From Dictyostelium discoideum (Eukaryota), in contig CM000155.2 in assembly GCA_000004695.1 (NCBI GenBank), positions 1,088,001 through 1,152,000 of the forward strand: DNA of 64,000 nucleotides, read 5' to 3'. How positions within the stretch are numbered: position 1 is the first letter of the stretch; each line of letters begins with the position of its first letter. The notes below the pieces were generated by a model, which saw only the letters and a list, made by a program, of their open reading frames with translations, did not search any database and was not told where the DNA came from. Shown here one piece after another: positions 51,831 through 52,547 of this stretch. The position numbers were made by a program, and so were the translations under genes.

Positions 51831-52547
51831 ATGACAAATATTTTTGAAAATATTTTTAAAATCCATCCATTTTCTAAAAATTTTCACGGCGAGGATCTAT
51901 ATATTGATGGATCATATAATTTTCCAACCGATATATGTTGTAAAATTGAAGAACAACAATTTCCAAAGGATAATATTTTTTTGGAAATAAAAGAAGAAGA
52001 AAAAGAAGAAATAAATAATAATTTAAATTATTATTTTAAGTCAATGGAAGTGCGACCAAGTGATAAAGAATTTTTCAACTATGATTGGTTTAGTTTTTTT
52101 AATGAAAATTCTTTAAACTTATCCATAATTTTTAATGGAAAAAAAAAAGAAAAAAATGAAGATGGTGGTGATGGTAGTGGTGGTAGCGTTAGTGTTAGTG
52201 TTAGTGTTAGTGATGAAGATGATGAAAATAATAAAATACTATTAAGTAAAACCGTTAAAAAATCTAAAAAATCAGGTAAATTTAAAACTATAAATTTTAC
52301 AGCTGATATTTTTAAATTAAAACAAAATGAAGCCGCCAAATCATTAAATATATCAACTTCTTGTATAAATAGATTATTAAAAGAAGAAATCACTAGAATC
52401 CCTTCCTTGCGTGAAATATATTTTAAACCTGGAAAACGTCGTATTATTTGGCCACATAGAAATTGCTCCAAATCTCCACTAGTTCAATATGCTATAAAAA
52501 ATAATGGAATTTGTATAAAATATAGAAAATATAAAAAAGGAAATTAA
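51831..52547 (+). CDS. Putative RWP-RK domain protein (238 aa)
   Basis: The C-terminal segment INFTADIFKLKQNEAAKSLNISTSCINRLLKEE...RRIIWPHRN resembles the RWP-RK core (..EAAK.LG.S.T.LKR.CR..GI.RWPHRK). There is an about 15-aa insertion, an acidic/Ser-rich linker, and a basic tail. Confidence 0.45.
   Translation: MTNIFENIFKIHPFSKNFHGEDLYIDGSYNFPTDICCKIEEQQFPKDNIFLEIKEEEKEEINNNLNYYFKSMEVRPSDKEFFNYDWFSFFNENSLNLSIIFNGKKKEKNEDGGDGSGGSVSVSVSVSDEDDENNKILLSKTVKKSKKSGKFKTINFTADIFKLKQNEAAKSLNISTSCINRLLKEEITRIPSLREIYFKPGKRRIIWPHRNCSKSPLVQYAIKNNGICIKYRKYKKGN

What the first reader, a model, noticed from the sequence alone, without database searches (positions are those of the whole stretch)
51831..52547. 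Possible RWP-RK-type putative transcription factor with an atypical insertion in the DNA-binding helix region
The sequence ..KQNEAAKSLNISTSCINRLLKEE[ITRIPSLREIYFKPGK]RRIIWPHRN keeps the EAAK..L..S.S and (R/G)I.RWPHR signature blocks of RWP-RK domains. About 15 extra residues sit between them. RWP-RK factors govern gamete/mating-type and nitrogen responses in algae and plants, and the few amoebozoan members are poorly characterised.
Basis: inference. Interest (0 to 1): 0.5.

Follow-up and report, generated by a model that had tools for sequence, protein, structure and literature searches.

The report
Divergent RWP-RK-like Dictyostelium DNA-binding protein
This is the known Dictyostelium discoideum gene DDB_G0292158, a small, probably DNA-binding protein whose domain is a very divergent relative of the plant/algal RWP-RK domain; its 16 extra residues are real coding sequence shared by a small species-group-specific gene family, which is a modest curiosity and not a surprise.

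Summary
ORF 51831..52547 (+, 238 aa) is identical to D. discoideum AX4 DDB_G0292158, which UniRef already names "RWP-RK domain-containing protein". It has an AAK-type helix-turn-helix block and an IIWPHRN block, separated by 16 residues more than in canonical RWP-RK domains.

The extra segment is not an intron:
- No in-frame GT..AG pair exists around it.
- It is 67% AT, against 90% in the flank.
- It is kept in frame in every relative.

It is a trait of a 13-member family found only in the D. discoideum species complex. Three hydrophobic positions inside it are invariant. A confident AF2 model (pLDDT 88) folds it as an extension of the recognition helix plus one extra short helix.

Pfam membership in RWP-RK fails: 17-20 bits against a cut-off of 29.3, while canonical Dictyostelium domains score 91-96. 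A profile-profile comparison with 24 genuine RWP-RK domains gives 93% probability (E 2.6e-7). Both blocks contribute, the gap falls exactly at the insert, and no column shuffle reaches the score.

Best reading: a divergent RWP-RK-derived HTH regulator with an acidic N-terminal half and a basic C-terminal domain. DNA binding and function are untested. Interest is low to moderate.

The parts
51831..52547 (+). Complete single-exon CDS of DDB_G0292158 (238 aa plus stop)
   Evidence: The ORF list and a 100% identity match to XP_629807.1 / UniRef100_Q54DR5.
51831..52247 (+). Acidic, low-complexity N-terminal half (residues 1-139, pI 4.4), weakly constrained and variable in length; inferred activation or interaction region
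   Evidence: 28 D+E against 14 K+R. dN/dS is 0.5-1.06. There is no Pfam domain. The D. dimigraforme orthologue has only about 44 residues here.
52248..52280 (+). Basic linker KTVKKSKKSGK (residues 140-150); possible nuclear localisation signal (inferred)
   Evidence: 6 K/R and no acidic residue, pI 10.7. The NLS role was not tested.
52281..52526 (+). Conserved basic domain (residues 151-232, pI 10.2) with predicted order: strand, short helix, helix, long helix, extra helix, WPHR loop, helix, strand
   Evidence: Family alignments A3 and A4. AF2 model m2932e8de6e1c has pLDDT 88 and pTM 0.78. C-terminal dN/dS is 0.24-0.51.
52305..52382 (+). Helix-turn-helix block DIFKLKQNEAAKSLNISTSCINRLLK (residues 159-184) that aligns with RWP-RK profile positions 9-34
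   Evidence: Pfam match at 17.2-20.1 bits. hhalign on the HTH block alone scores 29.4 with Prob 88.9%. dN/dS is 0.15-0.30. Weak PDB fold hits are almost all HTH DNA-binding domains.
52389..52436 (+). The 16-residue extra segment ITRIPSLREIYFKPGK (residues 187-202): a C-terminal extension of the recognition helix plus an extra short helix (P191-Y197)
   Evidence: It is in frame and of conserved length in the orthologues. All 13 family members have a 14-17 residue equivalent. I187, L193 and Y197 are invariant in the nine-sequence alignment A3; in the 13-sequence A4 only L193 is invariant, with I187 and Y197 at 90% or more. hhalign places the template gap here. AF2 pLDDT is about 93 for model residues 41-50. 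No GT..AG pair exists and the segment is 67% AT.
52437..52463 (+). RRIIWPHRN (residues 203-211): degenerate counterpart of the RWPxRK motif, with W, P and R kept, R changed to I and K changed to N
   Evidence: W207 and P208 are invariant in the family. The block aligns to template WPHRK. This block alone scores 22.1 in hhalign, P 2e-4. dN/dS for residues 203-238 is 0.11-0.14.
52476..52526 (+). SPL-helix (residues 216-223) and a C-terminal strand (227-232), presumed to pair with the N-terminal strand 151-156 (pairing not verified); this replaces the long helix that follows RWPxRK in canonical domains
   Evidence: AF2 secondary structure. S-P-L and N-x-G-I conservation in A4. The canonical four-helix description comes from PMC7399023.

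Best explanation
DDB_G0292158 encodes a small nuclear regulator. Its basic C-terminal domain (residues 151-232) is a strongly diverged descendant of the RWP-RK helix-turn-helix domain. It is the least-diverged member of a young gene family confined to the D. discoideum species complex.

In this family, 14-17 residues were added between the recognition helix and the W-P-x-R loop. These residues lengthen the recognition helix and add one short helix, and their conserved hydrophobic residues (I187, L193, Y197) presumably pack against the core. The long helix that follows RWPxRK in canonical proteins is replaced by a short helix and a strand, which presumably pairs with an N-terminal strand to close a compact module.

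The likely mechanism is inferred, not shown. The HTH recognition helix would contact DNA. The buried W-P would hold the following loop against the helices. The acidic, fast-evolving N-terminal half would act as an activation or partner-binding region.

Shown here: gene identity, conservation, the coding nature of the insert, profile-level homology, and the predicted fold.
Inferred: DNA binding, nuclear localisation, and a regulatory role.
For: - Identity with DDB_G0292158, which UniRef names RWP-RK domain-containing.
- hhalign of family against 24 genuine RWP-RK domains: Prob 93.4%, E 2.6e-7, colinear over both blocks, with the gap at the insert.
- Both blocks score on their own. Deleting the insert raises the hhalign score to 45.8. 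None of 200 column shuffles exceeded 23.4.
- Deleting the insert raises the Pfam RWP-RK score from 20.2 to 27.2 bits and extends coverage to profile positions 9-47. RWP-RK then leads the next family by 10 bits.
- RWP-RK is the Pfam family matched by most family members, 5 of 9.
- The insert is conserved in frame with invariant hydrophobic positions.
- Purifying selection acts on the HTH and WPHR blocks, with omega 0.11-0.30.
- The AF2 model is confident, with an HTH core. The weak PDB fold hits are almost all HTH DNA-binding domains.
- The N-terminal half is acidic and the domain is basic.
- Orthologues are syntenic, next to the Cnd2 gene.
Against: - Pfam PF02042 is below its gathering cut-off even after the insert is removed (17.2 to 27.2 bits against 29.3). 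True members score 56-96 bits.
- In the natural sequence HTH_37 scores as well as RWP-RK.
- Canonical invariants are not kept: C35 becomes L183, the R before W is I, and the last K is N. K32 is N in this protein.
- A HMMER search of 1.84 billion representatives, and a profile search, retrieved no canonical RWP-RK protein.
- No canonical clade is clearly closest.
- No fold comparison with a real RWP-RK domain was possible: none is solved and the AFDB library was unavailable.
- There are no expression, localisation or DNA-binding data, and no paper mentions the gene.
Confidence: 0.65

Rival explanations
1. The domain is a generic helix-turn-helix of another or independent origin, and the W-P-H-R after it resembles RWPxRK by chance or convergence. 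The protein may still bind DNA but is not an RWP-RK relative.
For: - HTH_37 scores equal to or better than RWP-RK on the natural sequence (18.8 against 17.2 bits; 20.6 against 20.1).
- All Pfam scores are below cut-off.
- Canonical invariants C35 and R42 and the fixed spacing are lost.
- The chr2 paralogues score only 3-7 bits against a canonical HMM.
- A bacterial-type repeated-HTH protein, P0010, is picked up by the same profile.
- The predicted N- and C-terminal strands have no counterpart in the published four-helix description.
Against: - The WPHR block contributes independently (22.1, P 2e-4) and in the correct order after the HTH.
- With the insert removed, RWP-RK outscores every other Pfam family by about 10 bits and aligns over profile positions 9-47.
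- hhalign gives Prob 93.4% with no shuffle near it.
- W and P, the two most conserved and buried canonical positions (PMC7399023), are invariant in the family.
Confidence: 0.25
2. The extra 16 residues are an unrecognised intron or other gene-model artefact, and the mature protein has a canonical RWP-RK domain.
For: Only the a priori observation that removing about 14 residues improves the Pfam alignment.
Against: - No GT..AG pair whose removal keeps the frame exists anywhere in 52300-52480.
- The segment is 48 nt. From my own knowledge, not checked here, that is shorter than Dictyostelium introns.
- It is 67% AT, against 76% for the ORF and 90% for the flank.
- It is retained in frame, with amino-acid-level conservation and invariant hydrophobic positions, in 13 genes from 5 species.
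- AF2 folds it with pLDDT about 93.
Confidence: 0.01
3. The ORF is a fast-evolving, lineage-restricted orphan with little or no function, possibly a decaying duplicate of an RWP-RK gene.
For: - The family is restricted to the D. discoideum complex.
- Whole-gene omega is 0.4-0.67 and N-terminal omega reaches 1.06.
- N-terminal length varies greatly between species, 238 aa against 138 aa in total.
- Repeats expand and contract inside the ORF.
Against: - The ORF is intact in all five species, with conserved synteny.
- The domain blocks have omega 0.11-0.30.
- The domain gives a confident, compact predicted fold.
- A second subfamily is maintained as a tandem pair.
Confidence: 0.06

Closest known systems
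Canonical RWP-RK domain transcription factors (Pfam PF02042): D. discoideum DdiRWPRK1/2, plant RKD and NLP/NIN, Volvox/Chlamydomonas MID and NIT2, stramenopile members
   Same: - An AAK-x-L-x-(I/V)-S/T-x-T/S-x-(L/I)-K/N-R/K HTH block, followed later by a W-P-x-R loop, in the same order.
- W and P are invariant.
- The domain is basic and sits in an otherwise low-complexity protein.
- Profile-profile probability is 93%.
   Different: - 14-17 extra residues lie between helix 3 and W-P. None of 24 canonical domains has any indel there.
- R before W becomes I, and the final K becomes N, T or C.
- The invariant C-R at the end of helix 3 becomes L-K.
- The long helix after RWPxRK is replaced by a short helix plus a strand, presumed to pair with an N-terminal strand.
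- Pfam score is 17-20 bits against 56-96 for accepted members.
Generic bacterial-type HTH domains (Pfam HTH_37 PF13744, Cro/C1-type HTH_3; LysR, LuxR/GerE and ModE DNA-binding domains in the PDB)
   Same: - A two-helix HTH core with a short turn.
- Comparable sub-threshold Pfam scores, 18.8-20.6 bits.
   Different: - None reaches its Pfam cut-off.
- None accounts for the conserved IIWP(H/R)R...SPL part of the domain.
The paralogous D. discoideum pair DDB_G0271872 / DDB_G0271878 and their orthologues (annotated 'uncharacterized')
   Same: The same domain architecture, including the insert, the IIWP(R/H)R motif, the SPL helix and the terminal strand. Domain identity is 39-47%.
   Different: - Shorter proteins (126-147 aa) with a different N-terminus.
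- The insert is 2-3 residues shorter and lacks the proline of ITRIP.
- They are further from canonical RWP-RK (3-7 bits against 15 bits).
- They are arranged as a tandem pair.
- No source labels them RWP-RK.

Membership tests
RWP-RK domain (Pfam PF02042) | Whole-protein score at or above the curated gathering cut-off (29.3 bits) | tested here: not met
   17.2 bits for the protein and 20.1 for the domain alone, covering only profile positions 9-34. The best result after artificially deleting the insert is 27.2. Positive controls score 90.6, 95.7, 63.2 and 56.4 bits.
RWP-RK domain (Pfam PF02042) | The eponymous R-W-P-x-R-K motif | tested here: not met
   The sequence is I-W-P-H-R-N. W, P and the second R are kept; the first R and the K are not. 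PMC7399023 notes that the first R and the sixth K are the less conserved positions in oomycetes and that W and P are the most conserved. The core is therefore retained, but the full motif is not.
RWP-RK domain (Pfam PF02042) | Fixed spacing between the HTH (K-x-x-C-R) and R-W-P, six residues and no indels | tested here: not met
   There are 0 indels in 24 canonical domains from plants, green and brown algae, Nannochloropsis and Dictyostelium. This protein has 22 residues there, and the rest of the family has 20-23.
RWP-RK domain (Pfam PF02042) | Invariant K32, C35 and R36 at the end of helix 3, and near-invariant G39 | tested here: not met
   The aligned residues are N180 (K in the chr2 paralogues), L183 and K184. 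No conserved G is present.
RWP-RK domain (Pfam PF02042) | Homology detectable at profile level across both conserved blocks, in colinear order | tested here: met
   hhalign gives Prob 93.4%, E 2.6e-7 over 40 columns. HTH alone scores 29.4, WPHR alone 22.1, and the insert-deleted profile 45.8. The maximum of 200 shuffles is 23.4.
RWP-RK domain (Pfam PF02042) | Four-helix arrangement with RWPxRK at the junction of a coil and a long fourth helix | tested here: inconclusive
   The AF2 model has the three preceding helices and a helix after the W-P loop. It also has an extra helix (191-197), a 5-residue gap between R210 and the next helix, and two terminal strands. The canonical description is a secondary-structure prediction taken from PMC7399023. 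No canonical model could be built or searched.
RWP-RK domain (Pfam PF02042) | Sequence-specific DNA binding and transcriptional regulation | not testable with these tools
   Only indirect support: a basic domain with pI 10.2 and HTH-type fold hits.
HTH_37 (Pfam PF13744) | Score at or above the gathering cut-off (27 bits) | tested here: not met
   18.8-20.6 bits. Four of nine family members match at E<1.

The most novel reading that the evidence does not exclude
The D. discoideum species complex may have recently produced a new DNA-binding domain subtype from an RWP-RK ancestor. An added helix next to the recognition helix and a strand-closed compact module could have changed DNA specificity or partner binding. 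The family's rapid evolution, tandem duplication and narrow species range could then reflect a role in a fast-evolving process such as the sexual (macrocyst) cycle or self/non-self recognition, by analogy with RWP-RK control of gamete identity in algae and plants.
Probability: 0.1. Interest if true: 0.5.

Novelty: new variant of a known kind. Interest (0 to 1): 0.27.

Why it matters
Pfam-based surveys count only two RWP-RK genes in D. discoideum (PMC7399023). This gene, and by extension its two unlabelled AX4 paralogues, would add a hidden, highly diverged branch.

It would also show that the RWP-RK scaffold tolerates a whole extra helix between the recognition helix and the W-P loop, with only W-P-x-R of the name motif retained. 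That is useful for deciding which residues are structurally essential.

The practical value is modest. It gives dictyostelid researchers three uncharacterised candidate transcription regulators and a defined domain boundary (residues 148-238) for binding assays. It does not open a long-standing question.

Tried and rejected
1. Cryptic intron. I enumerated all GT..AG pairs in 52300-52480 whose removal keeps the frame open and found none. The AT content also argues for coding sequence.
2. 'ITRIPSLRE' at the canonical spacing as the true degenerate RWPxRK, with IIWPHR as a second copy. Rejected: the proline and arginine are not conserved in the paralogues, hhalign gaps this stretch and aligns WPHR instead, and the two stretches show no DNA-level similarity (codons).
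3. The insert as a beta-hairpin 'wing' (winged helix). The first AF2 run with 3 sequences suggested this (pLDDT 64.8, with the other four models at 39-49). The 13-sequence run does not reproduce it (pLDDT 88, all five models at 86-88).
4. A paralogue elsewhere in the 64 kb window. None was found by HMM search or by an [RKI]WP.[RK] motif scan of six-frame translations.
5. A solved-structure relative. Sequence search found only noise, and fold search found only weak generic HTH hits. No RWP-RK structure is in the PDB.
6. The third homologue search was wasted on a consensus sequence I made up, which shared no words with the database. Genuine RWP-RK sequences were taken instead from Table S2 of PMC7399023.
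7. AFDB Foldseek search: the library was not available.
8. Finding the closest canonical clade, to test a local origin from DdiRWPRK1/2. The scores were too low and too similar to decide.
9. Literature on the gene or its paralogues: nothing found.
10. NCBIfam scan: only noise.

Full report
**1. What is there**

The window is 24% G+C, with poly(A)/poly(T) intergenic tracts. The protein is 100% identical to hypothetical protein DDB_G0292158 of Dictyostelium discoideum AX4 (XP_629807.1, EAL61435.1). UniRef100_Q54DR5 already carries the name "RWP-RK domain-containing protein". No paper in the searchable library mentions the gene, its UniProt accession or its paralogues.

**2.

- PF02042 matches at 17.2 bits, E 0.0049, below the gathering cut-off of 29.3. 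It covers only residues 159-184, which correspond to profile positions 9-34 of 49. The generic HTH_37 family scores slightly higher, at 18.8 bits.
- Positive controls behave very differently. The two canonical D. discoideum domains score 90.6 and 95.7 bits, a divergent soybean domain 63.2, and an N-terminally truncated Ectocarpus domain 56.4.
- Deleting 14-16 residues in silico lengthens the match to profile positions 9-47 and raises it to 24.9-27.2 bits. That is still under the cut-off, but it is now 10 bits above any other family.
- Strict Pfam membership is therefore not met, although the second block does add RWP-RK-specific signal.

**3. The extra segment is coding sequence, not an intron**

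- Both blocks are in the same frame, so an intron would have to be a multiple of three. No such GT..AG pair that keeps the ORF open exists anywhere in 52300-52480.
- The segment (52389-52436) is 67% A+T, against 76% for the ORF and 90% for the upstream flank.
- The two closest orthologues are 80% and 64% identical over the whole protein. Both keep the segment in frame at identical length, with amino-acid replacements: ITRIPSLREVYLKPGK and IVKIPTLREKYFKNGK.

**4. It is a family trait**

A HMMER profile search of 1.84 billion representative proteins found eight proteins at E<=1e-3. A word-indexed profile search added more. The named sources are all Dictyostelium of the discoideum complex: D. discoideum, D. 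cf. discoideum, D. firmibasis, D. dimigraforme and D. citrinum. The exception is P0010, a protein of repeated HTH units that matches only the HTH block.

There are two subfamilies:

- *The DDB_G0292158 orthogroup.* It is syntenic. The condensin Cnd2 gene lies downstream in the window and in L002. In D. dimigraforme the 1015-aa model P0006 is an annotation fusion of a stand-alone 138-aa ORF with Cnd2.
- *A group of 126-147 aa proteins.* It includes the AX4 genes DDB_G0271872 and DDB_G0271878, which lie as a tandem pair 571 bp apart.

All 13 aligned domains carry 14-17 extra residues between the HTH and (K/R)(I/L)(I/L/M)WP(H/R/Q/S)R. In the nine-sequence alignment, I187, L193 and Y197 inside the segment are invariant, together with F156, T157, L163, Q165, L172, L183, W207 and P208. 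In the 13-sequence alignment L193 stays invariant, while I187 and Y197 are conserved at 90% or more.

**5. Selection**

Nei-Gojobori estimates among the three close orthologues:

| Region | omega (dN/dS) |
|---|---|
| HTH block | 0.15-0.30 |
| WPHR-to-end block | 0.11-0.14 |
| N-terminal half | 0.51-1.06 |
| Extra segment | 0.28-2.9 |

The estimates for the extra segment rest on only 1-2 synonymous and 2-9 non-synonymous changes, so they are not reliable. The domain is constrained. The N-terminal half is barely constrained and also varies greatly in length: about 147 residues before the domain in AX4 against about 44 in D. dimigraforme.

**6. Is it really related to RWP-RK?**

I took 24 genuine RWP-RK domains from Table S2 of PMC7399023. 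They include Arabidopsis NLP and RKD, Brachypodium, soybean, Volvox NIT2 and MID, seven Ectocarpus proteins, Nannochloropsis, and DdiRWPRK1/2. They align without a single indel between the AAK block and RWP, and K32, C35, R36, W43, P44 and R46 are invariant.

hhalign of the 13-sequence family profile against this profile gives Prob 93.4%, E 2.6e-7 and score 38.5 over 40 columns. The template gaps (11 + 3 residues) fall exactly at ITRIPSLREIY and RII.

Controls:

| Profile compared with RWP-RK | hhalign score |
|---|---|
| HTH block alone | 29.4 (Prob 88.9%) |
| WPHR block alone | 22.1 (P 2e-4, 8 columns) |
| Full family profile | 38.5 |
| Insert deleted | 45.8 |
| 200 column shuffles | mean 10.5, sd 2.5, max 23.4 |

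The resemblance is therefore beyond chance and is not carried by the generic HTH alone.

Evidence against a close relationship:

- Canonical C35, R42 and the final K are not kept.
- No canonical RWP-RK protein was retrieved by either database search.
- Sequence-to-profile scores against any canonical sequence are no more than 15 bits, with no clade clearly closest.

Within the family, DDB_G0292158 is the least diverged from canonical RWP-RK, at 15.2 bits against 3-7 bits for the chr2 paralogues. This probably explains why it alone carries the RWP-RK label.

**7. Structure**

With three sequences AF2 was unconvincing (pLDDT 64.8). With the 13-sequence alignment all five models agree (pLDDT 86-88, pTM 0.78). 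In protein numbering the elements are:

- strand 151-156
- short helix 158-161
- helix 165-172
- long helix 176-189
- extra helix 191-197
- loop 198-215, which carries KRRIIWPHRN
- helix 216-223
- strand 227-232

The insert therefore extends the recognition helix and adds one helix; pLDDT is about 93 over model residues 41-50. PMC7399023 describes canonical domains as four helices, with RWPxRK at the junction of a coil and helix 4, and with W and P buried. The model is compatible with that core plus an added helix and two terminal strands.

**8. How it most likely works (inferred)**

The N-terminal half is acidic (pI 4.4), the linker KTVKKSKKSGK is basic, and the domain is basic (pI 10.2). This is the usual layout of a small transcription regulator: an activation or partner region, a possible NLS, and a DNA-binding domain. 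The recognition helix (T176-R189) would lie in the major groove. The W-P loop and the conserved I187, L193 and Y197 would form the hydrophobic core that fixes the added helix. None of this has been tested experimentally.

**9. Verdict**

The protein is an RWP-RK-like, probably RWP-RK-derived, HTH domain protein, but it fails the curated membership test and several defining features.
- The "atypical insertion" is a conserved structural element of a small, young, dictyostelid-specific family. It is neither an intron nor a one-off.
- The gene and its RWP-RK label are already in public databases. The family context, the nature of the insert and the link to the two unlabelled AX4 paralogues appear to be undescribed.
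- This is a new variant of a known kind, of modest interest.

Noticed in passing
window 51181-51244: A 26-bp unit containing ATCTCATGATTG is tandemly duplicated about 600 bp upstream of the start codon, at 51192 and 51218. The D. discoideum strain in L001 has one copy, at 5351. The more distant L002 has only a degenerate version (ATCTAATCAATGG). It sits in a partly conserved upstream block (TTGATTGGGG...CAAAAG) and could be a promoter element or simply a polymorphic duplication.
   Followed up: partly
window 52180-52212: A hexanucleotide repeat, (GTGTTA) x 5.5, encodes SVSVSVSVS inside the acidic N-terminal half. It differs in P0002 and is absent from P0003.
   Followed up: partly
L001 6001-6762 (P0002): The orthologue from another D. 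discoideum isolate carries a 13-residue tandem duplication (IFLEIKEEEKDES) in the N-terminal half. This is further evidence that the region is loosely constrained.
   Followed up: no
L004 1501-5641 (P0006, D. dimigraforme): The deposited 1015-aa gene model fuses the orthologue of this gene to the downstream condensin Cnd2 gene. The DNA shows a stand-alone 138-aa ORF (1501-1917) ending in a stop codon, with the Cnd2 ATG at 2705, so the fusion is an annotation artefact.
   Followed up: yes
P0004 (D. cf. discoideum, KAM9996805.1): This paralogue contains two and a half tandem copies of the HTH-plus-insert unit before a single IIWPHR block. HMMER reported three matched stretches, which points to recent internal duplication in the family.
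   Followed up: no
L003 8993-9430 and 10001-10438: Two 145-aa genes of this family lie in tandem on the same strand, 571 bp apart. One is P0007 (DDB_G0271878). The other was not translated or compared here and is presumably the equivalent of P0013 (DDB_G0271872). Both AX4 proteins are annotated only as uncharacterized.
   Followed up: partly
window 53212-56129: The downstream gene is condensin subunit 2 (Cnd2, PF05786). It is split over at least three ORFs (53212-53790, 53971-54966, 55440-56129), which implies introns. The first ORF has no Pfam hit, but it matches the start of the Cnd2 part of P0006.
   Followed up: partly
P0010 (368 aa, source unknown): A protein made of about seven tandem HTH units (…ELAxEYxVSxSTIxRLLKKEGVKLR…) was the weakest hit of the family profile, at E 3.9e-4. 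It matches the HTH block only. This is a reminder that the HTH block on its own is not family-specific.
   Followed up: no
Table S2 of PMC7399023, entry AtNLP8: The AtNLP8 domain sequence listed there has about 15 extra residues (GETSAYFQAWVYFF…) inside the HTH turn that AtNLP9 lacks. This is probably a gene-model or retained-intron artefact in that table. I left it out of alignment A5.
   Followed up: no
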